This document shows positions 31,804 to 54,636 of a stretch of 64,000 nt of DNA, piece by piece (the first letter of the stretch is position 1; every line of letters begins with the position of its first letter). The position numbers and the translations under genes are program-made. This stretch comes from Candidatus Levyibacteriota bacterium (GTDB lineage: Bacteria > Patescibacteriota > Microgenomatia > Levybacterales > UBA12049): contig OY970292.1 in assembly GCA_963716145.1 (NCBI GenBank), positions 533,171-597,170 on the forward strand, written 5' to 3'. The notes under the pieces are model-generated. The model had not been told where the DNA came from, made no database searches, and saw only the letters and a list, made by a program, of their open reading frames with translations.

Positions 31804-32685
31804 CTAGATCTTTAACTCTTTGAGGAATTTGCGAAAATCCGTACTGATATCTTCATGCTCCAGAGCAAACTGAACAACAGTCTTCATGTATTCCAATTTA
31901 TTCCCCGTATCATAATACTGACCATTTTCAATCTCACACGCATAGACCGGATAGCCTGTTTTGATAAGCTGATCAATTGCCTCAGGTAAATAAATTTCTC
32001 CACCTGTCCCCGGCTTTTGATTCTTCAGGATTCCAAAAATATCAGGAGGAAGAATGTATGCTCCGTGTGTCGCTAGATTGGACGGCGCCTTGTCAGGATG
32101 CGGTTTCTCAACTATTTTTTTGATTTTAAAAACATTCCCCTCGACCTCCTCAACCTCAGCAATTCCGTATCTTTTTAGATCCTCTTTATTCTCAATCCGA
32201 ACGCCGGATATCACAGCGCCGCCGAATTTTTCATGAACTTCCATCATCTGGGCAAGCCTGGGAGGAGTACTGTATATAAACTCATCTCCCCAAAGTACCG
32301 CAAAAAACTCATTATCAATAACGGGCTCTGCTGAAAGAACCGGAGTGCCGTTACCATACATTCCCTTTTGACGGATATAGATAAAATTGGCCATTTCGGA
32401 AATGGCTCTAGTATGAGCAAGAAGTTTGTCTTTGCCTCCGGCTTGCAGATTTTTGATAAGATCAGCATTGGGCGCGTCAAAATGATCTTCAATCGCCCGC
32501 TTAAGAGATCCGGTCACGATAATAATGTCTTCTACCCCTGAAGCAACTGCCTCTTCAACCACATATTGGATGACAGGCTTATCAACAATCGGGAGCATTT
32601 CCTTGGGCATCGCCTTTGTCTGAGGCAGGAACCGTGTCCCAAACCCGGCAGCGGGAATAACAGCTTTGCGGATCTTTTTTCGCAT
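31804..32685 (-). CDS. galU: UTP--glucose-1-phosphate uridylyltransferase
   Basis: AVIPAAGFGTRFLP.TKAMPKEMLPIVDKP motif. 293 aa. Confidence 0.85.
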   Translation of the reverse strand: MRKKIRKAVIPAAGFGTRFLPQTKAMPKEMLPIVDKPVIQYVVEEAVASGVEDIIIVTGSLKRAIEDHFDAPNADLIKNLQAGGKDKLLAHTRAISEMANFIYIRQKGMYGNGTPVLSAEPVIDNEFFAVLWGDEFIYSTPPRLAQMMEVHEKFGGAVISGVRIENKEDLKRYGIAEVEEVEGNVFKIKKIVEKPHPDKAPSNLATHGAYILPPDIFGILKNQKPGTGGEIYLPEAIDQLIKTGYPVYACEIENGQYYDTGNKLEYMKTVVQFALEHEDISTDFRKFLKELKI

Positions 32686-34089: not shown

Positions 34090-34773
34090 ATGGATACAAC
34101 ACAAACAACCGATCCAAAAGAGAAAGAAGACAAGAAAGTTGAAGAAAAAGCAGAAGACGCAAAACCTGATGTTATTGATACATCCGGTATTGCAGGCGAT
34201 GCTTCGGCAGGCTCAGCACAAGGTGACAAAAAAATTGTAACTGTTCCTGATAACGCCAAGTGGTACATTCTACACACTTATGCAGGACATGAAAATAAAG
34301 TCGCGCGTTCCCTGAAGCAGAGAGCCGAGGCGATGAAGTTTGATGACAGGATTTTTGATATCATTGTCCCGACAAGAAATACCATCAAAGTCTCACAAGG
34401 CAAAAAAGAGACTATTCAGGAAAAGATCTTCCCTGGATATGTTCTGGTCCGTATGATTCTGGATGATGAATCATGGTTCATGGTAAGAAGCACTCAGGGA
34501 GTAACCAGTTTTATAGGAGCAGGAAATAAACCAACTCCTATTTCAGAAAAGGAAGTTGAGGCGATTCAGAAATTTATGAACCTTGATGAGCCTCTTTACA
34601 AAGTAGCCTTCGTGGTCGGTGAAGCAGTCAAAATCACAGACGGACCATTCGCGGAATTCCTGGGAACAATTGACAATATAGATGAAACAAGGGGAAAGTT
34701 GAAGGTGCTGGTAAGTATCTTTGGACGCGAAACACCGGTTGAATTAGACTTTTTACAGGTGAAGAAAATATAG
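34090..34773 (+). CDS. nusG: transcription termination/antitermination factor NusG (acidic N-terminal extension)
   Basis: NGN domain ([15 protein letters not shown]) and a C-terminal KOW. About 55 extra acidic residues at the N-terminus. Confidence 0.85.
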
Positions 34774-34775
34774 CT

Positions 34776-35060
34776 ATGAATTATACAAAAGAAATGCCTT
34801 CAAGAGCAGGTTCTAAGCAAGGAGTAATTAGAGCGTCTAGAGATAACCCTGGAAGCAAGGTTATTATAGAATGGAGTGTGGCCTTTGGAGGGGTTAGAAA
34901 AGCAGTAGGAGCAACAACTTTTAACCCTCGAGTATACACCGCAACAAGATCTTTGGATGGGACAATACCGGAAATAAGGGTAGTTGCTATTAACCCTGAT
35001 CACGCGCTTAAAAGGATTTCTTCTAAAAAATCAGCAGCAAGAAAAGTGGCATACGCATAG
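34776..35060 (+). CDS. small basic hypothetical protein inserted between nusG and rplK
   Basis: 94 aa with native codon usage. Starts 2 nt after the nusG stop. Confidence 0.45.
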
Positions 35061-35065
35061 AAGAT

Positions 35066-35488
35066 ATGGCTAAGAAAATAAAAACACTTATAAAAATCGC
35101 ACTACCAGCAGGAGGGGCAACACCAGCGCCACCTGTCGGAACGGCATTGGGTCCGCACGGACTCAATATCATGGAATTTGTTAAAGCTTACAATGACAAA
35201 ACAGCCGAGCTTAAAGGCAATGTCATTCCGGTTGTGATAACAGTATATGAAGACAGGACATTTTCCTTCATCACCAAAAAACCCCCTGTTGCTGAGATGA
35301 TCAAAAAAGCAATGAGCGTTGAAAAAGGATCCCAGAAGCCGGGACGTGAAAAAATCGGCAAACTTACTATGGATCAGGCAAGGAAAATCGCAGAGGACAA
35401 AATGGAAGATCTCAACACAACAGATGTCGAAATGGGAGCAAGAATAGTCGCCGGAACAGCAAGAAGTATGGGGATTGATGTTAATTAA
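35066..35488 (+). CDS. rplK: 50S ribosomal protein L11
   Basis: [34 protein letters not shown], the canonical L11 sequence. Confidence 0.9.
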
Positions 35489-35557
35489 AAATGAAAACTA
35501 ATAACTTATTACTTATAACTTATAACTTGTCACTGTCGCGACTGAAGGGAGCGAACC

Positions 35558-36481
35558 GTGGGTAAAATAAGAGTTAAAACAATCGGAATTGAAGAAGACG
35601 AAAAAGATCAGAAGAAAAAGGCCAAAGCCAAAGCTGAAGCCAAGCGAATTGAAGCTGCAAAAAAACTCGGGGCAGATACAAAGGCGCAAGAGAGCAAAAG
35701 CGAAGAGGCGCAAAAACTTGCAAACACTGATACCGCAGATAAGTCCGCAAAAACACACGAAAGCAGTGACAGCGTAGTTCCGCGTTCGGTTTCGCGTAGT
35801 TCCGCGGACGAGAGCGAGGCGAAGTCTGCAAAAAAGCAGAGCAAATATAAAGCCAAAACCTCCAAAAAATCAAAACCTCATTCTAGCAATTACTTAACAA
35901 TGTCCAAACTTGTAGATAAAAATAAAAAGTACACAATTGACGAGGCATTGAAAATCCTAAATTCCGCCAACAAACTTAAATTCGATGAGACAATTGAGCT
36001 ACATATAAATACCAACGAAAAAGGCGTATCAGGGAATCTCACACTCCCCCACGGCACCGGCAAAAAAGCCAAAATTGAGATAGCAGATCATGCAACTGAC
36101 CCCAAACATCTTGAAGAACTAATCAAAAAAATCGAGGGCGGAAGTATTGATTTTGACATTCTCATCGCGACCCCTGATACGATGAGTCACTTGGCAAGAG
36201 TCGCGAGATTCCTAGGACCCAAGGGCTTGATGCCAAATCCCAAAAACGGAACGATAAGTCCCAAGCCTAAAGAAGCAATTAAAAAGTTTGAAGGCGGACA
36301 GATAAATTTCAAAACAGAAGCAAAAGCTCCTATCATCCATTTGAGCGTAGGTAAGCTTTCTTTTGGTGAAAAAGATCTGAATGCCAATATCACAACTGTT
36401 CTTCAAGCAGTCCAGACAAAAAATATAAAAAATGTAACTCTTAAATCAACAATGTCACCAGGTATTAAAATTTCTATTTAA
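35558..36481 (+). CDS. rplA: 50S ribosomal protein L1 with an approximately 114-aa Lys/Ala/Glu-rich N-terminal extension
   Basis: The canonical L1 domain begins at the in-frame Met at 35900 (MSKLVDKNKKYTIDEALKIL...GLMPNPKNGT). No stop lies between 35558 and 35900. Confidence 0.8.
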   Translation: MGKIRVKTIGIEEDEKDQKKKAKAKAEAKRIEAAKKLGADTKAQESKSEEAQKLANTDTADKSAKTHESSDSVVPRSVSRSSADESEAKSAKKQSKYKAKTSKKSKPHSSNYLTMSKLVDKNKKYTIDEALKILNSANKLKFDETIELHINTNEKGVSGNLTLPHGTGKKAKIEIADHATDPKHLEELIKKIEGGSIDFDILIATPDTMSHLARVARFLGPKGLMPNPKNGTISPKPKEAIKKFEGGQINFKTEAKAPIIHLSVGKLSFGEKDLNANITTVLQAVQTKNIKNVTLKSTMSPGIKISI

Positions 36482-36540
36482 TCTCTCCAAAATCCTCCAA
36501 CTTATTGACAACTCTTAGCTTTCTACGATAGAGTATTAAT

Positions 36541-36945
36541 GTGACTAATGGTAAAAAAATTATAATTGGCGGAATTTCTATCATCGCGCTGGTTATGCTT
36601 TTTGTCATTTTCGCGCCTTCATCATGGAAATTGCAAAAAAACAAACCATCCCTCAGCCCAACCCCCAACAATTGGCAGACCAATCCTTCAATTATTCCTG
36701 AATCAATGCAAGGCAAGGTTACTGCGTCTCTTTCAGCTGAATTAAAGGAGGTAGATAATTCAAATATTACAGGCGTTACAACATTTAAAGAAATTAATGG
36801 CAAGGTTTTTGTGGGGGTCGTACTTAAAGACGCATCGGCTGATACTGAATATCCGGCATATATCCATTACGGAACCTGTACTGAGCAAAAAGGTCCAAAT
36901 ATTCCCTCAGCCCGGTTGTCAAAGGAAAAACAGACAATTATATAA
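36541..36945 (+). CDS. small secreted protein, function unknown
   Basis: N-terminal TM or signal sequence. Faint beta-sandwich, SOD-like pattern (weak, not relied on). Confidence 0.35.
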   Translation: MTNGKKIIIGGISIIALVMLFVIFAPSSWKLQKNKPSLSPTPNNWQTNPSIIPESMQGKVTASLSAELKEVDNSNITGVTTFKEINGKVFVGVVLKDASADTEYPAYIHYGTCTEQKGPNIPSARLSKEKQTII

Positions 36946-37169
36946 ATACGACAGTTGCAGAATTTAAAAAAGAATTCCCGCTCTCTGTTAAAATCCACAA
37001 ATCTTCAGATGAGCAAGACGGATTGCTCAGCTGCGCTGATCTTAAATAATTCTGCGAAACCGCGTAGGCGGAAAAGCAGAACATCATTCGTATAAATGCT
37101 TTTTTCATTGATTTCCCGCTTTTTAAAATTTTGCTATACACCTAGCCTCAACAATCTGCATTGTGATAC

Positions 37170-37198
37170 TTGACATCTTATAGGGTATTTAATATACT
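37170..37198 (+). promoter_or_regulatory. near-consensus sigma70 promoter
   Basis: TTGACA, 17 nt, TATACT. Confidence 0.4.
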
Positions 37199-37750
37199 GT
37201 GTGGGATTCTTTGGAAGGTAAAGCTGAGAGTGCTTTTTTCGCGCTTTCACCCCAACCTTTTCCTGAAGAACGAAATCGGTAACTGAGATATGAAGGTCCA
37301 AACGCTGGACCAAATCATAACTCTTTTGCACTTTAAAAAACTAGGGATGTATTTTTTGCGTCCCGTAAGGATCATGAAATACTATGGACATCATCTATTA
37401 GCAGTTAAATGCTTTCAAATTTTTGTTGCGACCCATGCTCGCTTCTTCTCTTGTCCCGCGAAGCCTTTTGGCGAAGCGGGAAATCTCTCCGGTTATTTTC
37501 CTAAACTTTAAGCACTACTGTAATTTTGCTTATTTTTATAGGATAATTTATCGGAGAATTACATTCGGGATTGACATCCTACATTGGAGATAAATTATTT
37601 GTCTCCAGCGTTGGATGTCACATCCACCTAATTAGGGCAATTCTCACGGCGACCGCCGGCCCTAGCTTCCCCTAAAGGAGAGACTCGTCCTTACGACAAG
37701 GAGAGACTTTTTCGCAGGGAAAGTATGAGAGACAGACAAGGAGCAACACC

Positions 37751-38385
37751 ATGCAACGTCCATCCATCCGCCGAGGATTCGTGGCCGCTTTGGTCGCAAT
37801 TGGGATCGGTCTTACCACCGCCCCCGCCCCGGCGCTCGCCGACAACACCGACGTCAACGCCATCGTCGCCCAGGCCCGTGCCGACGCCACCACCCGTGTG
37901 GAAGCCGCTCTCGCAGCAGCCAACGCTCGTGTCGCAACCGTCGCCGCCCCGGCCCAGGCCGCCGACAACAACATCACGGCCACCCCGGCCAGCACCACCT
38001 CGGAGGCAACCGCCACCGAGTCCACCTACCAGGCACCCGCCGACACCGGCAACGCCAACAGCGGCACCGTCGAGGTCGCACCTGACCCCGTCGTCGCTTC
38101 GGCACCCGTCGTCGTCGAGGCAGCAGCTGTCGCTGTGGAGGCGCCGCCCCCGCCCCGGCCCTTGCCGTTTCGGCGCCTGTCGCACCCCTGGACTTCAACA
38201 TCCAGAACCCTGCCCAACCGGGGCAGAGGGTGCGCTTCGTGCGTTCCGAGGACGGGTCGTTCAGCGTGATCGCCACCAACAGGACCGGTTCGAACCAGTC
38301 CGCCCGCGTGTTCGCAGACCCCGTCTCGATCGGGATCGGCGTCCGCAACGGGAGCAAGAACTTCACCGGCGTCTTCAGCAGGTAG
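37751..38385 (+). pseudogene. high-GC (about 70%) Actinobacteria-like Ala/Pro-rich secreted protein gene, frameshifted
   Basis: AAGGAG ribosome-binding site 7 nt before the ATG. Signal peptide MQRPSIRRGFVAALVAIGIGLTTAPAPALA. GCC/GAC/ACC/GTC codon usage. The frame breaks in a C-run at about 38140-38165 and continues in another frame (DFNIQNPAQPGQRVRFVRSEDGSFSVIATN...) to the TAG at 38383-38385. Confidence 0.5.
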
Positions 38386-38958
38386 TCGCTTCACCAGGTG
38401 ATGCATCAAGGAAGGTTGACGGAATTTCTGTCTCAGGCCTCGGCTTGACTCAAGAGCTCGTCAGCTCCCCGCGATGCATCGCCTTTAGCTTTTAGCTTGC
38501 AAGGATGATCGTCCTCCTCCCTAGTTGGGAACTTTTTATGTGCCTAAAAAGCGCTAGTTCCCAACAGGGAGGGTGGATTCACTGATGTGGATTTTTCCTC
38601 GTAGAGGAGACATTTTCACATTTGTGATATTTTATTTTTTACGCGTTGCGGCTAAGCTGTTTCTGAGCAATTCGCGCTCCTTTTCACCGCTTACCGCGTA
38701 CCGTTACCCTATCCACCCTCCCTACTTCTATTTTGAGCCCCAATCAGACTTGGCGAAGCCTCGTTTGACGCGGGACTTAGAATAAAAGTATTTCATTATC
38801 TCAAAAATTACTCCTAAGCTCTGATTTATAACCACCATCTACTATCAGTACTTTGTTCCCGTTTGTAATTATTCTTATTTGCTTCTTAGCTGAAGATTTT
38901 TGACGTAGAAAAAACACCTTCATTGACATATAAGCTCCCCTATTTGTATAGTTAAATT

Positions 38959-39816
38959 GTGAGCAAAAAGTTTCTTCTAAACATTCTTACTGTTTCCATT
39001 TTATTTGTATCTGGTACCTTTTTGGTCTGGGCAGCAGCTAGCCCGAATGGGTGCGGAGGTAATGGCGGTACAGCCGGAGGCGTAGGCACCAAAGGATGCG
39101 ATAGCAGCTTCACAGGTTATAAAGGCGGCAACCCAGGCTCAGCAGGAGGAGGAAATGGGAATCCCGGTGGTAATGGATCTAATTTATCTGGGGATGCTGG
39201 TCAATATGGTGCTGGTGGGGGTGGGGGTGGAGGCGGAAGTGCTGGCGTTCGCGGTGGAAATGGAGGAATTGGTGGAAATTTTAATAACTTAGACGGTTTG
39301 GAGAGCGCTTCAGGCAACGGAGGACACGGAGGCTCGGGCGGTGCCTCTACTACCAATAGCGTCAGCGGTGGTGATGGTGGAACTGGAGGATTGGGAGGCA
39401 TTCTACAAAACGATAGCAACACCGGTAGCATAGGCGGAACGGGGGGTAATGGAGGGAAGGGAGGAGATACAGGCACAAGCGGGAGCGGAGCGGGTGTTGC
39501 CGGTGGTGCTGGAGGCGCCGGGGGAAATGGAGGAAATGTGTCAAAAGATACAGGGTTTGGTGTTACTACTTGGGGTAAGGGAGGAACTGGTGGCGTTGGG
39601 GGAAATGGAGGCGCTGGAGGCGATGCAAATGTGTCTGGGAACGGTGGTAATGGTGGTATAGGGGGAAAAGGAGGAAATGGTGGGAACGGAAAGACAAGTG
39701 GAGTTGGCTCCAACGGTGGGGTGGGGGGAAGTGGAGGAGATAGTTTTAGAGGGATTGGAGGAAACGGAGGAACCGGTGGAAATGGTGGCACTGGCTCAAC
39801 TGCAGGTACCCGGTAG
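38959..39816 (+). CDS. N-terminal segment of a giant surface protein: signal peptide plus Gly-rich (GGNGG/GGAGG) repeats
   Basis: TM or signal sequence MSKKFLLNILTVSILFVSGTFLVWA, then about 260 aa of GGxGG repeats. The Gly tract continues in other frames to about 40600. Confidence 0.5.
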   Translation: MSKKFLLNILTVSILFVSGTFLVWAAASPNGCGGNGGTAGGVGTKGCDSSFTGYKGGNPGSAGGGNGNPGGNGSNLSGDAGQYGAGGGGGGGGSAGVRGGNGGIGGNFNNLDGLESASGNGGHGGSGGASTTNSVSGGDGGTGGLGGILQNDSNTGSIGGTGGNGGKGGDTGTSGSGAGVAGGAGGAGGNGGNVSKDTGFGVTTWGKGGTGGVGGNGGAGGDANVSGNGGNGGIGGKGGNGGNGKTSGVGSNGGVGGSGGDSFRGIGGNGGTGGNGGTGSTAGTR

Positions 39817-40640
39817 CCCTGGCGGTGCCGGAGGAGAAGGTTGCGGTGGGCCCGGAGCAGTTGGTTCTCCCGCCTCAGGAAGTACCGGCGGTGCCGGAGG
39901 AGCTGGAGGACCAGTGTGTCTAAGCGGTGGTGCAGGTGGCACGGGTGGTATAAATGGCGGTGCCAGGAGGAGCTGGAGGACCAAAAAACGGCGCTGCCGG
40001 TGGCGCGGGTGGTACAGCCGGTGGAGGCGGTGGAGGCACGGGTCAACTTATAATTATGGGCGGAGGAGGTTCTACAAATTATGCTTATGGAGGAGGAGGT
40101 GGTGGAGGAGGCGCAGGGTACCAATGGTCTAGCTGGCGGTAAGGGTGGAAATGGTGGAGGTATGATAGTAGGTGGAGGAAGTTCTCTCAATTATATGGCA
40201 ACCGGGTCGGGTGGAGATGGAGGAGATGGAGGACATAATTCCAATGGTCCCGGTGGCAAAGGTGGAGACGGCGGGAGTGGTGGAGGTATAATAGGAGGTG
40301 GAGGAGGTTCTGTAAATCATGTATATCGTGGAGATGGGGGTAATGGCGGAAAAGGCGGGAACGGCACAGCCGGTCAGCCGGGTGGTGCTGGAGGAAATGG
40401 TGGATTTAGAAGTGGATACATTGTCGGCGGTGGAGGTAGCTCAAACTATTTTCATGTGGATGGAACTGATGGTGTAGGTGGTGCGGGAGGTGCTGGGTGC
40501 GGTGGCTTTGGTCAGCCTGCATCAGGCTCAACAGGTGGGGCTGGTGGCCCAGGATGCGAGGCGACCAACAGCAGCTTGCAGCAGCGGAAATGTCACCTGG
40601 AGTTGGACCGCCAGTACGAGTAGTCCCTCAACCCCAAATG
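39817..40640 (+). pseudogene. Gly-repeat region of the same gene, broken by at least 3 single-nt frameshifts
   Basis: Gly-rich translation hops between frames, for example ggtgccGgaggagct versus ggtgccAggaggagct at about 39965. The motif SPASGSTGGAGG(A)GGP(V)C recurs. Confidence 0.45.
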
Positions 40641-42265
40641 CACGACTTCAAGTTTTTGATAGCGCTGGAACAACTCTGTTATATGACAGTAACTCTGCTA
40701 TTGGTTCACCAAGAACCACCATTGGATTACCAGGAACTACCTTTAAAGGTCAAGTTAGCTACAACGGAACCAATCTTTACTCCGCACAAACCACTATTAC
40801 TTGCGCCGCAACACCAACATACTCCCTAACAGGCAGTATTTTTATCGATAGCAATGGAAATAATCTGAAAGATCCCGGAGAAAACCCTTACAATAGCTCC
40901 CAATTAAATGTCAGATTACGCAGTGGAGGCTCTACCTGGGATCAGGGCAACACTCCCGCTAACTATAATTATACCGGCCGTTCAGCCGGCGCGTATACCT
41001 TTGAGTTTTTATCGGCTATTCCGGCAGGATACACGCTGGGTCACCCCCCTGGTCCTCCATACCAGTATTCAGTTACTCTAGGTGCGGGATGCACGGCAAG
41101 CCCGCTGCCTCCCGGCAGTCCTGCCATCTGTGACGGATCAAATAACATAGTTGGTCTTAACTTTCCTCTTCAGGTTGTAGTCAGTCGTGTAACCACCACA
41201 ACTCTTTCTTCCTCACTCAATCCATCAACTGTCGGGCAAAATGTCACATTTACTTCAAATGTCAGTGGGGCTTGCGGGCCTACAGGAAATGTAGAATTTC
41301 TTGATGGGGCAGCAGTTATGGCAACAAGAGCATTGGCCGGAGCAACAGCCACATACTCAACTACCACCTTAACTGTCGGAAGTCACAATATTACGGCACG
41401 ATATACTGGCAATGCAGCTTGTGATCCAAGCACTTCCCCGGTTGTGGTCCAAACAATAAATCCCCCACCAAATCAAGCACCTACCATAAGCAACGCGACT
41501 ATTTCGCCCAAACCAATAACCGCAAATGGTTCAACACAATACGCAATAACCCTCACAGCAACCGACCCGAATGGCGGAAATGATATTGGAGCAGAATACA
41601 CAATCATCAACTATCAGGGCCCAAACGCAGGAGCTGGAAACTACCGAGGATATCTTGGATGGTCCACTCTGGGAGCTTCTCCGCCTCCTTATTCTTATCC
41701 CTACTGGACCTCTTCCATTTCTCCAAAACCCTGCGCGCCAGGTGGTGGCCAAGCGGCTGTCAATACCAGCGATGGCGCCACATGGGGACATCAATACATT
41801 AATTTGATAAGCTGTTCTACCGCAGTCGCGGGCAACATCAGGACAGTAACTTTTATTGTGACATTTAATAGTAACTTTACTGCGCCTACTAACAACAATA
41901 CTCTTTCCGGATATGTCCGGGATTGGGGAGGATTGGAAGATACTCCTATTATGAAACCATTTGACACGTTCAATTTGGCGCCGCCTGCAACTTACACAAT
42001 TTCAGGCAGTGTTTTTACTGATATAAGCGGAAATAAGATTAAAGATGGCAGTGAAATAGACTATCCAAGCTCTCCGGGCATAACAAAAAGCCCTGCCGGC
42101 GGAACTGTTACCAATAATGCAAACGGAACTTATAGCATTACTGGATTGTCTGCCGGAACTTACACTGTCTCCTATGGATCTGTCCCCGCAGGATACAATA
42201 TTGTTCATCCCCAAACAGGTCCGCCTCCCCAATTCTCAGTTACGGTTGGCCCGGATGCAGCGTGA
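40560..42265 (+). CDS. central part of the giant surface protein: SdrD-B / Cna-B-like and bacterial Ig-like (Big_3-like) domains
   Basis: Two SGS(I/V)F(I/T)D.NGN.IKD.GE motifs. Ig-like pattern TTTLSSSLNPSTVGQNVTFTSNVSG...GSHNITARYTGNAACDPSTS. The frame ends at the TGA at 42263. Confidence 0.55.
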
Positions 42266-43215
42266 ACCCCACTCCCCCAACAGCGGCCATAGCCTGTGAT
42301 GCTTCGCAAAACATTTCCGGCCTTAACTTCGCGATCAGTAATTCGTCTCCTTGGATACAGGGCTATGACTTGGATATGCGCTTTGATTATGGCTTTAATG
42401 ATGCTATCCCAGGCGGGACTCCATATACTCCCTACGCCTCAGTATTTGACACTTTTAGCAATACTCCTGGAGTTATTTTTTCAGGAGATAGCTCTTACAG
42501 CTTTGGATCGGGCCAAGCATCAATTACTAGGAGTGTTGTTGGGGGCACAACCTATCCTGAAGTTTTTAACTTCCCATCAGGCAACCCTCTGCACACAAGT
42601 TATGGATACTTATCAGGCAATGCCGCGAGTGCCGGAATAACTCCCAGAGATATGGCAGGAAATGATACTTCGGGAAATTCGGTCTGCAGCGGCGGCGGCA
42701 TTGGTAATTGCACTATCCATCCGAATTTACTAAAAGGTGTTTACGGCGCAAATGGAAATGTAAAAATAAACACATCTTCTCTAAAGGCTGCCAGCAATTA
42801 TATTTTCCTCATAAACGGAACTCTAACTATAAATGGAAATATAACTATTCCTACAACCTCAACAGCTCTTTTTACATCAAGCAGCAACATCATAATTGAC
42901 AAGTCCGTTGGAGCAGCAAGTAATTCATTCCCCCGTCCCACGGGACAATTGCAGGGATTCTATAGCGCTGACAATTCTTTTACTATCCAGGGAAACAATA
43001 ATTGCTCTCTCGGAATTGATAAAATGTTAAACATTGAAGGTTCTGTAGTTGTGAATGCCAACGGCACGGGAGGATCTGTTGTGAATCAGCGCAATCTTTG
43101 CGGTGATAATGCCACTATTCCTTCTCTTACGATCGCTCCCCGTCTTGATTTTATTCTCAATGCTCCATCATTTCTGATGGTACCTGATGTTATCTCCAAT
43201 GAAGTCGCACCATAG
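42262..43215 (+). CDS. C-terminal part of the giant surface protein (beta-helix-like repeats)
   Basis: Starts by repeating the PxxPxAAIACDxSxNIxGLNF motif seen upstream. Separated from the previous segment by a -1 frame shift. Confidence 0.45.
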   Translation: MNPTPPTAAIACDASQNISGLNFAISNSSPWIQGYDLDMRFDYGFNDAIPGGTPYTPYASVFDTFSNTPGVIFSGDSSYSFGSGQASITRSVVGGTTYPEVFNFPSGNPLHTSYGYLSGNAASAGITPRDMAGNDTSGNSVCSGGGIGNCTIHPNLLKGVYGANGNVKINTSSLKAASNYIFLINGTLTINGNITIPTTSTALFTSSSNIIIDKSVGAASNSFPRPTGQLQGFYSADNSFTIQGNNNCSLGIDKMLNIEGSVVVNANGTGGSVVNQRNLCGDNATIPSLTIAPRLDFILNAPSFLMVPDVISNEVAP

Positions 43216-43252
43216 TTCAGGATTAAAGATATACGATTAAAGATTAAAGAAT

Positions 43253-43272
43253 CCTGCCTGCCGGCAGGCAAG
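43253..43272. repeat. GC palindrome, copy 2
   Basis: cctgcctgccggcaggcaag, 38 nt after the giant surface-protein gene stop. Confidence 0.6.
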
Positions 43273-43446
43273 TCTTAAATCTTAAATCCCCCAACGTTCC
43301 TCTTTACAATACCTAACTCCCCTGTTATAATCTTCTTATCCTAAGAAATGGTCCTGCAAAGCAGAATTCGAAAGAATCTAGCAGCAGATAAAACATCAAA
43401 GCAGAATCATAAAGTATTCTTCTTTGAAGAACCCATGGAGGATCAT

Positions 43447-43992
43447 ATGCAAGACACATCAACTAAAGTCAGTTCAAACCGCCTCAAAAAAGAAGCTGTT
43501 GTTACAGAACTTTTGCAAAAGGTTGAAAAGGCGCAAGGATTGGTTTTTACAAACTACCAGGGCCTCACACATCAGCAAATCGAATCGCTCAAAAAAGCGC
43601 TAAAGTCGCTTGATGCTGAATATGTAAATACCAAGAACACTCTACTGCTCAGAGCCCTCAAAGATAAGCTTGACACTGAGGCGGAAAAAGATAAATTTCA
43701 GCAGCCTACAGCTACTCTTTTTATGTACAATGACATAGTTGAGCCTCTTAAGCAGCTTGCCAAAACACTTAAAGAGCTAGGTCTTCCAACAATCAAGTTC
43801 GGATTCCTGGAAGGAAAAGTTATGACTGATCAGGAAGTTGTAAAAATCTCCACTCTCCCTCCCCTTCCCGTACTTCGCGCTCAATTACTTGGCAATATGA
43901 AAGGGCCTATTTCAGGGCTGCACATAGCACTGTCGTGGAATATCAATAAACTTGTACTTACATTGAGGGCAATCGAAACTAAAAGGGGATAA
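43447..43992 (+). CDS. rplJ: 50S ribosomal protein L10
   Basis: L10 pattern (KAQGLVFTNYQGLT...LKDKL...). The start is moved to an internal ATG; the track ORF starts at 43348. Confidence 0.8.
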   Translation: MQDTSTKVSSNRLKKEAVVTELLQKVEKAQGLVFTNYQGLTHQQIESLKKALKSLDAEYVNTKNTLLLRALKDKLDTEAEKDKFQQPTATLFMYNDIVEPLKQLAKTLKELGLPTIKFGFLEGKVMTDQEVVKISTLPPLPVLRAQLLGNMKGPISGLHIALSWNINKLVLTLRAIETKRG

Positions 43993-44112
43993 TTGTCCAT
44001 TTTCCAGGCTTCATTTTCCATTGATTGATCAATTTACAAATTTTTTCAATCGAAAATAAATGGACAATGGCAAATGATAAATGGAAGATTACCTACTGGA
44101 AGGAGGTGTATT

Positions 44113-44505
44113 ATGGCAAAAATGAATAAAGACGATTTAATGAAATCAATCGAAGAGATGACGGTTCTTGAACTTTCAGATCTGGTTAAAGCACTTGAAG
44201 AAAAATTCGGAGTTTCAGCAGCAGCAATGGCTGTAGCAGCACCGGCCGCAGGAGCCGCTCCAGCAGGAGACAGCGCACCAGCTGAGGAGCAAACAGTCTT
44301 CAACGTTGTAATTGCGCAGTCAGGAGCACAAAAAATCGCTGTTATTAAAGCACTTCGTGAATTAGTCCCAACTCTTGGGCTTAAAGATGCGAAAGATTTA
44401 GTTGACGCAGCTCCAAAAGAAATAATGAACGGCGTAAACAAAAAAACAGCTGATGAGGCAAAAGAAAAGTTAACAGCAGCAGGCGCTACTGTTGAGTTAA
44501 AATAA
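44113..44505 (+). CDS. rplL: 50S ribosomal protein L7/L12
   Basis: [34 protein letters not shown]...AAGATVELK. Perfect AGGAGGTG ribosome-binding site. Confidence 0.9.
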
Positions 44506-44509
44506 CACT

Positions 44510-44563
44510 AAATAGTATCTAGTATCTGCACTTTTTGAAGTCTCATGCTAGATACTATTTTTG
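44510..44563 (+). terminator. rho-independent terminator after rplL
   Basis: 13-bp inverted repeat aaatagtatctag/ctagatactattt followed by TTTTT. Confidence 0.55.
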
Positions 44564-44580
44564 CGAATGCTTGTTTTATT

Positions 44581-45660
44581 ATGAAAAGACCTAAAAACCT
44601 AAGAATCCCAGGGCCCACAACGCTTTATCCTCAAGTCAGGAAAAAGATGGGCGAACCGGCGTTTAACCACCGTGGTCCGGAGTTTGAAGAAATAATTATT
44701 CAAGCCACCAAAAAACTGCAGGAAGTCTTTCATACCAAAGAAGATGTACTTATTCTGACTACTTCGGGAACCGGCGGACTTGAAGCTGCTATCGTAAACA
44801 CTCTCTCCCCCGGAGACAAAGTGATTGCTGTTTCTATCGGCACATTTGGAGACCGTTTCTCACAAATTGCTGCGTCTTATGGCGCAAATCTTATCGACCT
44901 TGCTTACGCATACGGTACAGCTGCAAATCCGGATGATATCCAAAAAATATTAAAAGCAAACCCTGACGCAAAAGCAATCCTCATAACTCATAACGAAACA
45001 TCAACCGGCGTGACAAATGATCTGAAAACAATCGCAAAAATTGTCAAGGATAATTCCAAAGCTCTTCTTATTGTTGACGGCGTCAGTAGTGTCGCGGCAA
45101 TACCTCTGCGGACTGATGATTGGGGATGTGATATTGTAATTACAGCTTCACAAAAAGGCTTCGGCACGCCGCCCGGAATTGCGATGATCAGCATGAATAA
45201 AAGAGCGTGGATTGCTTATGAAACATCAAAGATGCCAAAATTTTACCTTGATTTAGGTAAGGCCAAAAAATCGCTTGCCAATAAGCAAACCCCCTTCACT
45301 CCGGCAACTCATCAAATTGACGCACTCAATACCGGCCTTACTATTATGCTCAAAGAGACTCTTCCCGTAATTATCAAAAGGCATTCCAATGCAACCAAAA
45401 AAATAAGAAAAGCAGTCAGAGAAATGGGGCTCGAGCTTCTGGCAGACGATAAACATGCCTCAACTGTCCTGACCTCCGTAAAAACAGACCGAGCTTCAGA
45501 AATTGTAAAAGCTATGCGTACAAAAGGAATAGAAATTGCAGGCGGTTATGGTCCTTTAAGCGGAAAAGTTTTCCGCATCGGCCACCTCGGCTTTTTCACC
45601 GAAGCGGAAATTGATGAAACCTTGAAAGCTCTAAAAGTGTGTATAGCGGGCCTCAAATAA
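44581..45660 (+). CDS. class-V PLP-dependent aminotransferase (serine-pyruvate / alanine-glyoxylate family)
   Basis: TTSGTGGLEAAIVN...DGVSSVAAIP...SQKGFGTPPG with the PLP lysine. The start is moved past the terminator hairpin. Confidence 0.7.
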   Translation: MKRPKNLRIPGPTTLYPQVRKKMGEPAFNHRGPEFEEIIIQATKKLQEVFHTKEDVLILTTSGTGGLEAAIVNTLSPGDKVIAVSIGTFGDRFSQIAASYGANLIDLAYAYGTAANPDDIQKILKANPDAKAILITHNETSTGVTNDLKTIAKIVKDNSKALLIVDGVSSVAAIPLRTDDWGCDIVITASQKGFGTPPGIAMISMNKRAWIAYETSKMPKFYLDLGKAKKSLANKQTPFTPATHQIDALNTGLTIMLKETLPVIIKRHSNATKKIRKAVREMGLELLADDKHASTVLTSVKTDRASEIVKAMRTKGIEIAGGYGPLSGKVFRIGHLGFFTEAEIDETLKALKVCIAGLK

Positions 45661-45665
45661 AATCT

Positions 45666-46379
45666 TTATGCAGCCGCAGGCATAGGCACAAGATAATCTG
45701 TATTAAATGTTGTCCAATACCATCCCCCATCATAACCGCCCAAACCGCTCCTGAGCACTTGTTCATCAAGTTCGGCAGCTTCTCTACGATTTAAGCCCCG
45801 GACATTTCTATATACTCTTTGTGCATCTCTCCTCCACCCATCTGGAGGATTAATTGGAAAAACAACGCGGAATTGAGTATCGGGCGGATTAGTATATTTA
45901 AGCGTATTAAGAGATGCTAAGTCATCGGGCATATATCCGGAAAATGAAAGCCAAAATTTAGGACCATTTTCATCACCAGGTAGTTTTAACTCTAGATATT
46001 TTTGTCCCACAGCTGCCTCTCCATCTATATTAGTTTCTCCAGGATAACTACTAACAACTCTATTGACAACCAAAGGACCAACAAGCGCAAATGATGGCTC
46101 TTTCCTCTTTTTGTCATTTGGAGGGTAATCAAAAGTGACATTCAATTCTGGTGGCAAAACAGCTTCAATCTCCGCAGCTGTTCTCATTTTTAGAGGATTA
46201 ACAGGAGCAAGAATATCTCTTAGGTTTTGTCGTGGTTGTGATGCTCCCGCATTTCCTTCAGCGCTCAATCCGGAACCACCTATAGCTCTCCTATTCGAAA
46301 GCGCAATGGCACCACCAATTGTAACTGCGCCACGTATTAATAACTCTCTTCGACTTAAGTCCCCCTCTTGACCACGCAT
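45666..46379 (-). CDS. Tat-signal hypothetical secreted protein
   Basis: Twin-arginine N-terminus MRGQEGDLSRRELLIRGAVTIGGAIAL. Slightly elevated GC. Confidence 0.45.
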   Translation of the reverse strand: MRGQEGDLSRRELLIRGAVTIGGAIALSNRRAIGGSGLSAEGNAGASQPRQNLRDILAPVNPLKMRTAAEIEAVLPPELNVTFDYPPNDKKRKEPSFALVGPLVVNRVVSSYPGETNIDGEAAVGQKYLELKLPGDENGPKFWLSFSGYMPDDLASLNTLKYTNPPDTQFRVVFPINPPDGWRRDAQRVYRNVRGLNRREAAELDEQVLRSGLGGYDGGWYWTTFNTDYLVPMPAAA

Positions 46380-46516
46380 ACTAAATGATTATGAAAAAAA
46401 TCGTTTAAGATGTCAAGATTTAATAATCTTCCCTCTTGACAAAAGGTGTACTAGTTTGTTACTTTAGAGATAGCTCTGAATCATAAGAATAGTACATTAG
46501 TATAGTTAACACTAGT

Positions 46517-46726
46517 ATGAATAATCAAAAGCTATCAATAGATAACCTTCCAGATCTACTTACAGTCCGTGAAGTTGCTGAAGTTCTCCGTGTCTCCCCT
46601 CTTACTATCAAAAGATGGGGTAAAAGAGGAAAGCTTCCGGCAATAAGAATAAACTCACGAGGAGATAGAAGATACAAAAAAGAAGCAGTCCTCTGGCTCC
46701 TCGGCATCCAACCAAAAACTGAATAA
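46517..46726 (+). CDS. excisionase-family / MerR-like helix-turn-helix DNA-binding protein
   Basis: LLTVREVAEVLRVSPLTIKRWGKRGKLPAIRI..GDRRYKKEAV. Confidence 0.6.
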   Translation: MNNQKLSIDNLPDLLTVREVAEVLRVSPLTIKRWGKRGKLPAIRINSRGDRRYKKEAVLWLLGIQPKTE

Positions 46727-46741
46727 AGTCCTCCTATTTAC

Positions 46742-48196
46742 ATGATGACTCATGAATTTGCCAGAAGACATGCCCCTCAAGAACCTCACGACTCGGAGAC
46801 ACTGAGGAAAAAAACCTTCCATATCGAGTCAGGAAATCGACTGCGTGGAGAAGTTAATCCCGGAGGATCAAAAAATGGAGCTATTCCTATCATGTGGGCA
46901 GCTACGCTCTGCAATACTCCTTCAACTATTAGAGGATTGCCTGCGCTTGGAGATACCACAATAAACATGAAGTTGCTCAGGGCATTTGGCGTAAATGTAA
47001 TCCCAGACGGAGATGTTACAACCATCGACCCGCAAAATGTCACAACCGGAACTGCCATAAGAAAAAATATCGAATCTTCAAGAAATAGTATTCTGACAGT
47101 TGGAGCTATGTTAGGGCGTCTCGGGCATGTTACCATCCCTCACCCAGGCGGTGATGCACTGGGACCCAGACCAATTGATTATCACATAAAAGTAATGGAG
47201 GCCCTAGGAGCAAAATTCAAAGAAGATGCTGACGGCATGCAGTTTGAAGCGCTTGATGGATTAAAAGGAGGCTATTATAAATTCCCCCAACCTAGCCATT
47301 TGGGAACAATAAACGGCTTGCTTGCGGCAGTAAATGCAGACGGCTCAACCACGCTTAAAAACTGCGCATTAGAACCTGAAGTTGAAGAATTTATCGATTT
47401 TTTGACAAAGGCAGGAGCAAGAATTAAAAGAGATGGTTTGGACCCCCGAACTATCTTGATTGAGGGAGTACGCGAATTGAATGGTGTTGAGGATTTTGAA
47501 ATATTGCCCGATAGAAATGCGATAGTTACCTACGCAGTTGCTGCTATAGCTACCGAATCTGAGGAAGGAGTCACTGTAAAAGGAGCGAAAAAGGTGCATT
47601 TGAAATCATTTCTATCTTTGCTTGATGAAATGGGAGGCGGATACAAAATTCCAGATGACGAGAACGAGGACTGGATAAGATTTTTCTATAAAGGAGAATT
47701 GACTGCACCAAAACGCACTATAGTAACTTGCCCGTATCCCAATGACCAATTTGGTAATGAAAATTACCTTGGCATAATGACTGACTGGCAGCCGCTTGTA
47801 AGCTTATTACTCTTAAAAGCAAAAGGTACTTCAAGAATTATCGAAGCAGTACATCCTGATCGGTTCCAACACTTAAATAGTGCTTCTTCTGCAGGAGCAA
47901 ATATAGAATTTTTTGATCCAAAAATAGAAGATCCTGAATTGGGGTACTTTTTTAGAGATGAATTCGACAAAAAAAATCACGGAGCGGTCATTACCGGTGG
48001 AACGCTTTTCAGTAAGGAAATTCCAACCTCTGAAAGTGATGATGTAAGGCTAAGCGCGTTTAATATGATTGCGGGACTTTCGCTGACCCAACCGGGAGTA
48101 ACCACTATCATGCACAGCCCGCTGCACCTGGAAAGAGGCTATGAAGATCTTACTGGAAAACTCCAATCTCTCGGCGCTAATATTTTAGCGGCTTAA
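46742..48196 (+). CDS. murA: UDP-N-acetylglucosamine 1-carboxyvinyltransferase-like enzyme (MurA/EPT family) with Asp at the fosfomycin-target position
   Basis: Aligns with E. coli MurA end to end (KNGAIPIMWAATL... HLERGYEDLTGKLQSLGANI). The active-site loop reads PGGDALGPRPIDYH where E. coli has PGGCTIGARPVDLH. Confidence 0.8.
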   Translation: MMTHEFARRHAPQEPHDSETLRKKTFHIESGNRLRGEVNPGGSKNGAIPIMWAATLCNTPSTIRGLPALGDTTINMKLLRAFGVNVIPDGDVTTIDPQNVTTGTAIRKNIESSRNSILTVGAMLGRLGHVTIPHPGGDALGPRPIDYHIKVMEALGAKFKEDADGMQFEALDGLKGGYYKFPQPSHLGTINGLLAAVNADGSTTLKNCALEPEVEEFIDFLTKAGARIKRDGLDPRTILIEGVRELNGVEDFEILPDRNAIVTYAVAAIATESEEGVTVKGAKKVHLKSFLSLLDEMGGGYKIPDDENEDWIRFFYKGELTAPKRTIVTCPYPNDQFGNENYLGIMTDWQPLVSLLLLKAKGTSRIIEAVHPDRFQHLNSASSAGANIEFFDPKIEDPELGYFFRDEFDKKNHGAVITGGTLFSKEIPTSESDDVRLSAFNMIAGLSLTQPGVTTIMHSPLHLERGYEDLTGKLQSLGANILAA

Positions 48197-48318
48197 ATAT
48201 ATAACGCCACGAAGAAAATAAAACATTAAATTACTACGTTGGGTTAAATTCGTCTTTGAAAGCTAAGGTAGGTGTACCACATTATTGAAAATGATTGCAG
48301 AGTGGTATAATTAGATTC

Positions 48319-48579
48319 ATGAATAGCGACTACATTTCTCTGATAGGTTTTGCGGCGGCGACTTTGACTACTGCCTCTTTTTTACCACAGGTGGTTCAAA
48401 CTCTGAAAACCCGTAAAACAAAAGACATTTCACTGGGTATGTATATCGCTTTCACGATTGGGATTACTCTCTGGGGAATTTACGGTTTTCTTATCGGGTC
48501 CCCACCTATTATCATCGCCAACATCATAACTTTTGTTCTGACTTGCATTATTCTATATCTCAAAATCAAACATGGCTGA
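48319..48579 (+). CDS. SemiSWEET (MtN3/PQ-loop) sugar transporter
   Basis: 86 aa, three TM segments, PQ motif (SFLPQVVQTLKTRKTKDISLGMY). TATAAT at 48305-48310 suggests a near-leaderless transcript. Confidence 0.6.
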   Translation: MNSDYISLIGFAAATLTTASFLPQVVQTLKTRKTKDISLGMYIAFTIGITLWGIYGFLIGSPPIIIANIITFVLTCIILYLKIKHG

Positions 48580-49648
48580 TGACTATCAACAAGTAAAGCA
48601 AAACTTTTTTTCAGAGCTCAAAGCCGCCTCAAACAATAAAAAAAGCAGTCTCTCATACATAAAAAATGACCTTTCTCAAAAACCTCTTGTAGAAAATGGT
48701 ATTGTTCAGGTGATAGTAGTGGGCGGGACAAATTATATTTCCTCATTAGTCAAAGTGGTAAACGGAAAAAATCAGAGTCTGAGTATTGAAAAAGGTAAGT
48801 TGCCTATCTTCAAAACACGTAAAGATTTTTCTCTATTTCTGGATAAAACTCTAAGCAAAGATGCTGAGGCTTTAGGAATCAATTTCGCCTTTCCGCTCTT
48901 GCCCACTACCGGACTTCTGGGAGCGCTTGACGGGATACTTATAAAAGTCACCAAGGAGCACAAATTTATTGGACTTATCGGAAAGCGTGTCGGGGAATTT
49001 GCCGGAAAACAGTATTTTAAAAAATATAAAAACTTTATACCCGTTACAGTTGCCAACGATACAGTCTGCCTCACTCTTTCGGACCAAGGAGAAGCGGATG
49101 GCGGAATGGTCTTGGGGACTGGATTTAACATGAGTTTGAAAACAAGCGGAAAAGCCAAAAAAACGATAATCAATTTAGAAGCCGGCAATTTTAATGGTTT
49201 TGAGATATCCGATACTCTTAAAAAAATTGATGAGATATCTGAAAAACCGGGAAATATGCTGTTTGAAAAAGCTGTTGCCGGTAAATACCTTGTGGAGGAT
49301 TTTAATGAGCAGGCAAAAGCGTTAGGGACAAACTTCGCTTTAAAAACAACCGAAGATTTGTCCCATCTTGCGAAAACAAACCATAAGGCTGAGGGTGATT
49401 TGGCGCAATCAGTTCTGAAAAGGTCAGCATTTTTTATCGCAGGGGCCCTTGCCGGAGTTTATGAATTCAGAAACCGTCCCACCAAACTTGAATTCGTTAC
49501 AGAAGGTAGTTTGTTCTGGAAAGGATATAAATATCAAGAAAATGTACAGAAACAATTAATCGGGCTAGGAGTGCCCAAAAACGCAATAAGATTTAAATAC
49601 GTAGAAGACAGCAGCCTAAAAGGCGCGGTAGGTTTATTGATTAAATAA
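48572..49648 (+). CDS. hexokinase-family sugar kinase
   Basis: VIVVGGTNYISSLV (matches LDLGGTNFRV), LGINFAFPLLPT, VTVANDTV. These follow the order of the hexokinase signature motifs. Confidence 0.55.
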   Translation: MADDYQQVKQNFFSELKAASNNKKSSLSYIKNDLSQKPLVENGIVQVIVVGGTNYISSLVKVVNGKNQSLSIEKGKLPIFKTRKDFSLFLDKTLSKDAEALGINFAFPLLPTTGLLGALDGILIKVTKEHKFIGLIGKRVGEFAGKQYFKKYKNFIPVTVANDTVCLTLSDQGEADGGMVLGTGFNMSLKTSGKAKKTIINLEAGNFNGFEISDTLKKIDEISEKPGNMLFEKAVAGKYLVEDFNEQAKALGTNFALKTTEDLSHLAKTNHKAEGDLAQSVLKRSAFFIAGALAGVYEFRNRPTKLEFVTEGSLFWKGYKYQENVQKQLIGLGVPKNAIRFKYVEDSSLKGAVGLLIK

Positions 49649-49683
49649 TTTCCAATTTTAAATTTCAAATTACAAATTTCTAA

Positions 49684-50058: not shown

Positions 50059-50133
50059 TGGGTATTTGAAATTTGAAATTATAAATTTGAAATTCCTATG
50101 CTCTCTTCCGGTACTCTGCCTGGTGTTCTTTTT

Positions 50134-54355: not shown

Positions 54356-54381
54356 CAGGAACCCACGATGGGGCTACCTAG

Positions 54382-54609: not shown

Positions 54610-54636
54610 TGCTGCTTCTCCTCTCTCAGCGCGGAT

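What the first reader, a model, noticed from the sequence alone, without database searches (positions are those of the whole stretch)
38959..43215. Giant adhesin-like gene with a PGRS-like glycine-repeat region riddled with frameshifts
A signal peptide is followed by about 550 aa of GGNGG/GGAGG repeats whose reading frame changes at least four times (single-nt indels in short G/A runs). The Gly repeats use GGA/GGT codons, so they look native. The remainder has SdrD-B/Cna-B-like and Ig-like domains and a C-terminal beta-helix-like part, with one more -1 shift at 42262 (a TGA in the upstream frame). Repetitive contingency-locus-like sequence could give slipped-strand phase variation of a surface protein. 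Alternatively this is homopolymer sequencing error.
Basis: partly seen in the sequence, partly recalled or inferred. Interest (0 to 1): 0.65.

Follow-up and report, generated by a model that had tools for sequence, protein, structure and literature searches.

The report
Surface-protein gene broken by probable assembly errors
A large glycine-rich surface-protein gene of a Candidatus Levyibacteriota bacterium really is split by five single-base frame shifts in this assembly, but they are most likely consensus errors, not phase variation or a dead gene.

Summary
Window 38959-43215 (+) reads in frames 1>2>0>1>2>1, with four 1-nt surpluses (~39810, ~39965, ~40116, ~40564) and one 1-nt deficit (~42251). 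Five 1-nt corrections give a 1417-aa protein. It is colinear and 64% identical with an intact, syntenic 1236-aa orthologue (P0001), and at least four more Gly-rich relatives are intact. Every frame segment shows purifying selection (overall dN/dS about 0.15), and the corrected frame has no stop codon.

The gene has no homopolymer longer than 6 nt, no microsatellite and no DNA repeat, so slipped-strand phase variation has no substrate.

An independent Logan assembly of run ERR11593400 matches the window 100% over 24.5 kb. In the 11 kb flanking this gene it differs by six 1-nt indels. It restores the neighbouring small gene that is frameshifted in the window (36894), and itself breaks rplL and EPSP synthase where the window is intact. 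These disagreement sites and the gene's shifts share a GGNNCC context.

Best reading (about 0.7): an intact gene with residual consensus errors. Rivals: a very recent pseudogene (about 0.17) and true heterogeneity (about 0.06). The protein is an ordinary multi-domain surface protein with an unannotated, widespread C-terminal domain.

The parts
38959..43215 (+). Whole surface-protein gene in six frame segments. The conceptual product is 1417 aa after five 1-nt corrections.
   Evidence: the repaired translation has no internal stop and is colinear with intact P0001 (64% identity over 1222 aligned residues).
38959..39039 (+). N-terminal hydrophobic signal peptide or signal anchor (aa 1-27, ...VWAAAS).
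   Evidence: This is the only strongly hydrophobic 19-mer in the protein. AF2 models a helix at aa 3-26. The segment is conserved in P0001.
39046..40557 (+). Gly-rich region (aa 30-532, 48% Gly) with GGxGG-type motifs, four hhhGGGGSxNY units and three Cys pairs. It contains shifts 1-3; shift 4 lies at its 3' edge (40558-40576).
   Evidence: No Pfam or NCBIfam model matches it. The AF2 model has pLDDT below 50.
39809..39811 (+). Shift 1 (frame 1 to 2): one surplus C directly after GGTACC.
39962..39965 (+). Shift 2 (frame 2 to 0): one surplus base in gcc-a, at the 3' end of GGTGCC.
40113..40118 (+). Shift 3 (frame 0 to 1): one surplus G directly before GGTACC. This is the reverse-complement equivalent of shift 1.
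40558..40576 (+). Shift 4 (frame 1 to 2): one surplus base whose position is ambiguous within C-E-A|P-T-A-A-C. Removing a40564 gives GGCGCC and keeps the C-x6-C spacing of P0001.
42250..42252 (+). Shift 5 (frame 2 to 1): one base missing (ccc where the orthologue has gga ccc ggt = G-P-G). The TGA at 42263-42265 terminates the upstream frame.
40817..41173 (+). First SdrD_B / prealbumin-like domain (TYSLTGSIFID ... GLNFPLQ).
   Evidence: Pfam reports two SdrD_B stretches. The boundaries are inferred from the internal repeat and from the alignment with P0001.
41207..41458 (+). Bacterial Ig-like domain, group 3 (Big_3_5).
   Evidence: E = 1.2e-18, residues 220-303 of the translation that starts at 40550.
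41465..41980 (+). Insert of about 170 aa that P0001 lacks, of unknown fold (weak Invasin_D3 hit).
41990..42336 (+). Second SdrD_B / prealbumin-like domain, interrupted by shift 5.
   Evidence: best stretch corresponds to 42101-42220.
42337..43212 (+). Conserved C-terminal domain with no Pfam or NCBIfam model, ending E-V-A-P. The confident beta-solenoid core is at about 42589-43131.
   Evidence: AF2 pLDDT is 80-96 for residues 110-220 of the 317-aa ORF and about 70-83 for 221-280. Foldseek gives only weak hits to DUF3494-type ice-binding beta-helices. The family has 751 representative clusters, and in nearly all of the 150 listed proteins the domain is C-terminal.
36541..37049 (+). Neighbouring small secreted-protein gene, frameshifted in the window at 36894 (CC instead of CCC). 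It serves as an internal control for assembly error.
   Evidence: It is split relative to L001. It is intact at 169 aa in Logan contig L005 and in L002.

Best explanation
The organism, a Candidatus Levyibacteriota (CPR) bacterium, most likely carries an intact gene of about 1417 codons for a secreted or cell-surface protein. The five frame shifts are most likely single-base consensus errors left in a long-read-type metagenome assembly. What is shown: the gene has intact orthologues, the corrected frame is colinear with them and under purifying selection, the neighbourhood carries single-base indels that a second assembly of the same population contradicts, and those indels share the sequence context of the gene's shifts. 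What is inferred: the reads are indel-prone at GGNNCC-type G/C contexts, either through a basecalling problem (perhaps at a methylated motif) or through a consensus built from mixed strains, and the G-rich coding strand of this gene concentrates such sites. Also inferred is the protein's role. An N-terminal signal or anchor is followed by a flexible Gly-rich stalk, then prealbumin-like and Ig-like spacer domains, then a C-terminal beta-solenoid domain that probably mediates binding or anchoring.
For: (1) Intact relatives. P0001 (1236 aa) lies between rplA and rplJ exactly as here. L002 has a syntenic 963-aa ORF and L003 a 771-aa ORF. P0154 and P0174 are also Gly-rich and intact. (2) Five 1-nt edits give an ORF with no stop that is colinear with P0001 across all five junctions, without gaps at shifts 1, 3 and 5. 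(3) pN is far below pS in each of the six segments, and dN/dS is about 0.15 overall. (4) Logan contigs of run ERR11593400 are 100.000% identical to the window over 14,669 + 3,756 + 6,126 bp. Next to the gene they differ by six 1-nt indels and five substitutions in 11 kb. (5) Logan restores the small gene that is broken in the window at 36894. Conversely, Logan carries +1 nt in rplL relative to the window, L001 and L002, and breaks EPSP synthase. Both assemblies therefore contain false indels. (6) Three of 7 disagreement sites and 3 of 5 gene shifts lie within GGNNCC plus or minus 1 nt, against backgrounds of 1.3-2.4% and 3.4-6.3% of positions. Most of the others gain the motif in the other version or after repair. 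(7) Logan contig L005 ends at 39344 inside GGTGCC, and none of the Logan contigs retrieved spans 39345-43353. (8) All five lesions are 1-nt events. There are no larger deletions and no nonsense codons.
Against: No reads could be inspected, so the error is inferred and not seen. The sequencing technology of the assembly and of ERR11593400 is unknown. The assembly is otherwise very accurate: 24.5 kb is concordant and A/T runs of 7-8 nt cause no apparent frameshifts. Five errors in 4.2 kb is therefore a strong local excess. The motif was found post hoc and widened during the analysis (GGTNCC, then GGYRCC, then GGNNCC). Twenty-four GGNNCC sites in the concordant regions show no disagreement, so the motif alone does not predict errors. 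No second assembly covers the gene's shift sites themselves. Surface-protein genes are a class that does decay or switch in nature.
Confidence: 0.7

Rival explanations
1. The gene is a real, fixed, very recent pseudogene. This strain's copy has been inactivated by five genuine single-base indels, and the neighbouring small gene is decaying as well.
For: The frame shifts are in the deposited consensus. Elsewhere the assembly is highly concordant with a second assembly. The region between rplA and rplJ also holds another broken gene and a frame-broken high-GC ORF, which could be read as local gene decay. Accessory surface proteins are often lost.
Against: The neighbouring frame shift at 36894 is absent from the Logan assembly of the same population. 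The gene has no nonsense codon and no multi-base deletion, which is unexpected for a gene old enough to collect five indels. Four 1-nt insertions against one 1-nt deletion runs against the usual bacterial deletion bias (general knowledge). Purifying selection is visible in every segment. The sites share their context with demonstrable assembly errors.
Confidence: 0.17
2. The population is truly heterogeneous, showing phase variation. Cells differ in indel state at these sites, switching the surface protein on and off, and the consensus captured an off mixture.
For: Two assemblies of one population disagree by 1-nt indels around this locus. Logan contigs break across the gene. The gene encodes an exposed protein.
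Against: There is no simple-sequence tract: the longest homopolymer is 6 nt and lies away from the shifts, and there are no microsatellites. There is no repetitive DNA, no DGR-like template/variable repeat pair and no matching inverted repeat in the window. Restoring expression would need five independent switches to be 'on' at once. The same kind of disagreement hits rplL and EPSP synthase, where an off state cannot be biological. Relatives carry no shifts.
Confidence: 0.06
3. Recoding is programmed: four +1 shifts and one -1 shift by the ribosome, or transcriptional slippage, produce the full-length protein.
For: All four shifts in the Gly-rich part go in the same direction, and the net shift is zero modulo 3. 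At shift 1 a TAG follows two codons after the shift.
Against: The sites share no slippery motif. At shifts 2-4 the old frame stays open for another 24-165 nt, so no stop or hungry codon sits at the shift. No orthologue has a shift at any of the five positions, whereas programmed sites are conserved.
Confidence: 0.02

Closest known systems
Residual indel errors in long-read (metagenome) assemblies, including errors linked to sequence context or methylation motifs and haplotype-mixing consensus errors
   Same: All events are single-base indels at short G/C runs. They cluster locally. Two assemblies of the same population disagree reciprocally, including false frame shifts in essential genes. They share a short palindromic context, GGNNCC. 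The related Flye-style contig L001 has its own T5-versus-T4 frame shift in a galU-like gene. Background literature: indels in ONT assemblies inflate CDS counts through frameshifts (PMC11649196), and long-read metagenome assemblies carry diverse errors, including haplotyping errors (bioRxiv 10.1101/2025.04.22.649783).
   Different: The platform is not known here. Long A/T homopolymers look fine. The motif does not predict errors everywhere (0 of 24 sites in concordant regions). Methylation at GGNNCC was not tested.
PE_PGRS proteins of Mycobacterium
   Same: Long Gly-rich stretches with GGxGG-type motifs in an exported protein.
   Different: There is no PE domain. The phylum is unrelated. Gly is encoded by GGA/GGT in a 40% GC genome. 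The region carries conserved Cys pairs and hhhGGGGSxNY units and is followed by Ig-like and prealbumin-like domains.
MSCRAMM / Sdr-type and Ig-like-repeat surface adhesins of Gram-positive bacteria
   Same: SdrD_B (CnaB/prealbumin-like) and bacterial Ig-like (Big_3_5) domains follow a signal peptide, in a modular stalk-like architecture.
   Different: There is no LPXTG sorting signal and no C-terminal membrane segment. There are no Ser-Asp repeats and no ligand-binding A region. The NCBIfam SdrC score is 17.6 against a cutoff of 1700. The protein ends in a different, unannotated domain.
Contingency loci (simple-sequence-repeat phase-variable surface genes, e.g. in Neisseria, Haemophilus, Mycoplasma)
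   Same: A surface-protein gene whose reading frame is interrupted by small indels.
   Different: There is no homopolymer longer than 6 nt and no tandem short repeat at the shift sites. There are five separate lesions rather than one switch tract.
DUF3494-type ice-binding-protein beta-helix domains
   Same: The confident core of the C-terminal domain is a beta-solenoid with a flanking helix. The best Foldseek hits are IBP beta-helices (probability up to 0.93, TM 0.36-0.48 normalised by target length).
   Different: E-values are only 0.2-1. There is no Pfam match. The first 108 and last 23 residues are unmodelled.

Membership tests
Contingency locus (slipped-strand phase variation) | A simple-sequence tract (a homopolymer of roughly 7 nt or more, or tandem 2-7-nt units) in the ORF or promoter at the switch point | tested here: not met
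   The longest runs in the gene are G6, C6, A6 and T6, and none is at a shift. There is no microsatellite with 4 or more copies. TRF finds only short imperfect 9-18-nt periodicities.
Contingency locus (slipped-strand phase variation) | Length heterogeneity of the tract among reads or cells | not testable with these tools
   No reads are available. Two assemblies do differ by indels near the gene, but essential genes are affected as well.
PE_PGRS | N-terminal PE domain (PF00934) followed by PGRS repeats | tested here: not met
   Pfam gives no hit on the N-terminal 285 aa or on P0001.
MSCRAMM / Sdr adhesins | SdrD_B (CnaB-type) repeat domains | tested here: met
   PF17210 matches at E = 5e-9 in two stretches, above the gathering score.
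MSCRAMM / Sdr adhesins | C-terminal LPXTG sortase signal with a hydrophobic segment | tested here: not met
   There is no LPxTG-like motif. The only hydrophobic segment is N-terminal, and the protein ends ...ISNEVAP.
Programmed ribosomal frameshift genes (prfB-type +1, dnaX-type -1) | A conserved slippery site with a stimulator, with the shift conserved in orthologues | tested here: not met
   All orthologues are single ORFs at these positions, and the five sites share no motif.
Bacterial Ig-like domain (Big_3_5) repeat proteins | A PF16640 domain above the gathering score | tested here: met
   E = 1.2e-18, 67.9 bits against a cutoff of 35.5. There is one copy only.
DUF3494 / ice-binding-like beta-helix | Sequence match to the family model, or a strong structural match | tested here: inconclusive
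Long-read consensus error | The indel is contradicted by an independent assembly or by reads of the same population | tested here: inconclusive
   This is met for the neighbouring gene (36894) and, in the reverse direction, for rplL and EPSP synthase. None of the second-assembly contigs retrieved covers the five sites in the gene itself.

The most novel reading that the evidence does not exclude
The indels are real and heterogeneous in the population. They arise preferentially at GGNNCC sites, for example through motif-targeted nicking or modification followed by error-prone repair. That would give a surface-protein on/off or decay mechanism that does not depend on simple-sequence repeats.
Probability: 0.04. 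Interest if true: 0.7.

Novelty: not a real feature. Interest (0 to 1): 0.15.

Why it matters
If the shifts were real, this would be either an unusual multi-site switch or a freshly dead surface protein in a CPR bacterium. The evidence points to an artefact instead, so the practical value is as a caution. Single-base frame shifts in G-rich coding DNA of long-read MAGs should not be read as pseudogenes or phase variation without read support, and GGNNCC sites in this genome deserve a methylation and error check. Two real points of modest interest remain. First, a Gly-rich surface protein is conserved inside the rplKA-rplJL ribosomal-protein cluster of Levyibacteriota. Second, its C-terminal domain (about 300 aa, ending E-x-A-P) has no Pfam or NCBIfam model yet occurs in about 750 protein clusters.

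Tried and rejected
1. Exact look-ups of the 317-aa ORF, L11, rplL and the 484-aa ORF in the gene-position index found nothing. Only proteins also present in Logan gave contigs.

2. I found no Logan or other contig across 39345-43353. The third homologue search, with the repaired Gly-rich region, was swamped by low-complexity candidates and returned only P0153. The first search missed the self-hit P0141, so absences in that tool are weak evidence.

3. The AF2 model of the Gly-rich N-terminus is unusable (pLDDT 39.6), so a polyglycine-II-type fold could not be tested.

5. A literature search for the run accession gave no hit, so the sequencing platform was not identified.

6. The narrower motifs GGTNCC and GGYRCC (BanI-like) were considered. 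GGYRCC fits the five gene shifts but only one of the seven disagreement sites. At shift 5 the orthologue favours a CCCC-to-CCC undercall over GGCGCC. GGNNCC is the simplest common context, but it was chosen post hoc.

7. A DGR or repeat-mediated mechanism was considered. No part of the gene is repeated elsewhere in the window.

8. Alternative genetic code (UGA read as Gly, as in Gracilibacteria and SR1) was considered and dropped. The breaks are frame changes, not in-frame TGAs, and the neighbouring genes read normally under table 11.

9. The metagenome scan returned only three short contigs, which add nothing on the shift sites.

10. The Rfam and tRNA scans found nothing relevant to the gene.
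Full report
**1. What is in the sequence**

Between 38959 and 43215 the + strand carries six overlapping or abutting ORFs, in frames 1, 2, 0, 1, 2 and 1.

Reading the DNA against an intact orthologue locates five single-base lesions:
- a surplus C in ccc 39809-39811, directly after GGTACC;
- a surplus base in gcc-a 39962-39965, at the end of GGTGCC;
- a surplus G at 40113-40118, directly before GGTACC;
- a surplus base somewhere in 40558-40576;
- a missing base in ccc 42250-42252, after which the old frame ends at TGA 42263-42265.

Removing or adding those five bases gives a 4,254-nt ORF of 1417 codons with no internal stop.

**2. What the gene encodes**

The product has these parts, in order:
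- one N-terminal hydrophobic helix (aa 3-26);
- a 503-aa region with 48% Gly, using the genome's usual GGA/GGT codons;
- two SdrD_B/prealbumin-like domains and one Big_3_5 Ig-like domain;
- a 170-aa insert that the closest orthologue lacks;
- a C-terminal domain of about 300 aa with no Pfam or NCBIfam model.

AlphaFold models the core of that last domain confidently as a beta-solenoid: block-mean pLDDT is 80-96 for residues 110-220 and about 70-83 for 221-280. Foldseek gives only weak similarity to DUF3494-type ice-binding beta-helices.

An exhaustive HMMER search finds the domain in 751 representative clusters, 386 of them at E <= 1e-30. In nearly all of the 150 listed proteins it sits at the very C-terminus and ends in E-x-A-P. 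There is no LPXTG motif. Twenty cysteines form ten apparent pairs, which fits an extracellular protein.

The Gly-rich part could not be modelled and matches no family. 'PGRS-like' is a compositional likeness only.

**3. Relatives and context**

The window belongs to a 1,142,061-bp contig. The closest relatives are Candidatus Levyibacteriota MAGs.

An intact 1236-aa orthologue, P0001, lies between rplA (plus a small secreted-protein gene) and rplJ, exactly as in the window. L002 has a syntenic intact 963-aa gene. L003 has an intact 771-aa paralogue-like gene in a different context. P0154 and P0174 are further intact Gly-rich members.

The repaired window protein is colinear with P0001 through all five junctions, at 64% identity. 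Non-synonymous divergence is far below synonymous divergence in each of the six frame segments, and dN/dS is about 0.15 overall. The gene was therefore functional in the corrected frame for essentially all of its history.

**4. Is there a substrate for phase variation or recoding?**

There is not. The gene has no homopolymer longer than 6 nt, and the 6-nt runs are not at the shifts. It has no microsatellite, and its only internal DNA similarity is 71% over about 110 nt.

No part of the gene is repeated elsewhere in the window, so there is no DGR-like template.

The five sites share no slippery motif. At shifts 2-4 the old frame stays open for another 24-165 nt. No orthologue has a shift at any of the five positions.

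**5. Evidence on assembly accuracy**

Logan contigs assembled independently from public run ERR11593400 overlap the window. L004, L007 and L008 match it 100.000% over 24,551 bp. The two contigs that flank the gene behave differently. L005 (window 35144-39344) and L006 (window 43354-50142) differ from the window by six 1-nt indels and five substitutions in 11 kb.

The direction of the errors is informative:
- At 36894 Logan has CCC where the window has CC. That restores the 169-aa small gene, which is also intact in L001 and L002, so the window is wrong there.
- At 44252 Logan has an extra base in rplL that the window, L001 and L002 all lack. At 47862 Logan breaks EPSP synthase. Logan is wrong at both.
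- At 38142 the two versions differ and neither gives a continuous frame.

The underlying data therefore produce false single-base indels in this neighbourhood, in either assembly.

L005 stops at 39344, inside a GGTGCC. None of the Logan contigs I retrieved crosses the gene, so the five sites themselves are not independently checked.

**6. A shared sequence context**

Shifts 1-3 sit directly at GGTACC or GGTGCC. Shift 4 becomes GGCGCC if a40564 is removed. Shift 5 is a CCC that is CCCC (GGCCCC) in the corrected frame, as in the orthologue's G-P-G.

The disagreement sites show the same context:
- GGCGCC at 38142;
- GGAGCC at 44252;
- GGTTCC at 47862;
- GGCTCC 2 nt from 46693;
- in the Logan versions, GGTCCC at 36894 and GGTTCC at 44010.

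Counting the window sequence only, 3 of 7 disagreement sites and 3 of 5 shifts lie within GGNNCC plus or minus 1 nt. Only 1.3-2.4% and 3.4-6.3% of positions, respectively, do so by chance. My binomial estimates from those figures are roughly 2e-4 and 1e-3.

Three caveats apply. The motif was found post hoc and widened during the analysis. The 24 GGNNCC sites in the concordant regions show no disagreement. Methylation was not tested. I therefore treat the motif as a link between the gene's shifts and demonstrable errors, not as a proven cause.

**7. Verdict**

The most likely reading (about 0.7) is that the gene is intact in the organism and the five shifts are residual consensus errors. They would come from indel-prone reads at short G/C runs, possibly aggravated by base modification or by mixed strains.

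A very recent real pseudogene is the main rival (about 0.17). It is disfavoured by the contradicted neighbouring shift, by the absence of nonsense codons or larger deletions, and by the shared error context.

True heterogeneity (about 0.06) and programmed recoding (about 0.02) have no supporting anatomy.

The protein itself is an ordinary modular surface protein. Its conserved position inside the ribosomal-protein cluster and its unannotated C-terminal domain family are the only mildly notable real features.

Noticed in passing
window 37650-38500: This is an island of about 65% GC in a 40% GC genome. An ORF starting at 37751 has an actinobacterial-style signal peptide (MQRPSIRRGFVAALVAIGIGLTTAPAPALA) and an Ala/Pro-rich linker, and its last ~50 aa read in another frame (38230-38385). 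The island is absent from the syntenic loci L001 and L002. It is present in Logan contig L005, which differs by 1 nt at 38142 yet is also out of frame. It could be a horizontal acquisition from a high-GC organism, or a decayed gene.
   Followed up: partly
window 36541-37049: A small secreted-protein gene, conserved in L001 and L002, is frameshifted in the window at 36894 (CC for CCC). It is an intact 169-aa ORF in the Logan assembly of run ERR11593400.
   Followed up: yes
window 34090-44505; L001 6407-15003; L002 4978-12095: The small secreted-protein gene and the giant surface-protein gene are inserted between rplA and rplJ, inside the otherwise conserved nusG-rplK-rplA-rplJ-rplL cluster. This arrangement is seen in three Levyibacteriota genomes.
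   Followed up: partly
window 42337-43212: The C-terminal domain of about 300 aa has no Pfam or NCBIfam model. It is found in 751 representative protein clusters. In nearly all of the 150 listed proteins it is at the extreme C-terminus and ends E-x-A-P. The N-terminal architectures vary, and only 4 of the top 150 are Gly-rich.
   Followed up: partly
window 44009-44011, 44252-44256, 46693, 47862: These are further single-base indel or substitution disagreements between the window and Logan contig L006. Here the window version keeps rplL, an HTH gene and EPSP synthase intact, and the Logan version breaks them.
   Followed up: yes
L001 4616-5498 (minus strand): The related Flye-style contig carries its own frame shift, T5 versus T4, in a galU-like NTP-transferase gene. 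That gene is intact in the window (31804-32685) and in L002.
   Followed up: yes
window 41465-41980: An insert of about 170 aa in the window protein is absent from the closest orthologue P0001. It has only a weak Invasin_D3 hit.
   Followed up: no
window 53900-55300: This stretch has GC 0.54 and no convincing long ORF, only small minus-strand ORFs and a dubious 187-aa TTG ORF. Logan contig L007 ends at 53907. It has no Rfam hit.
   Followed up: no
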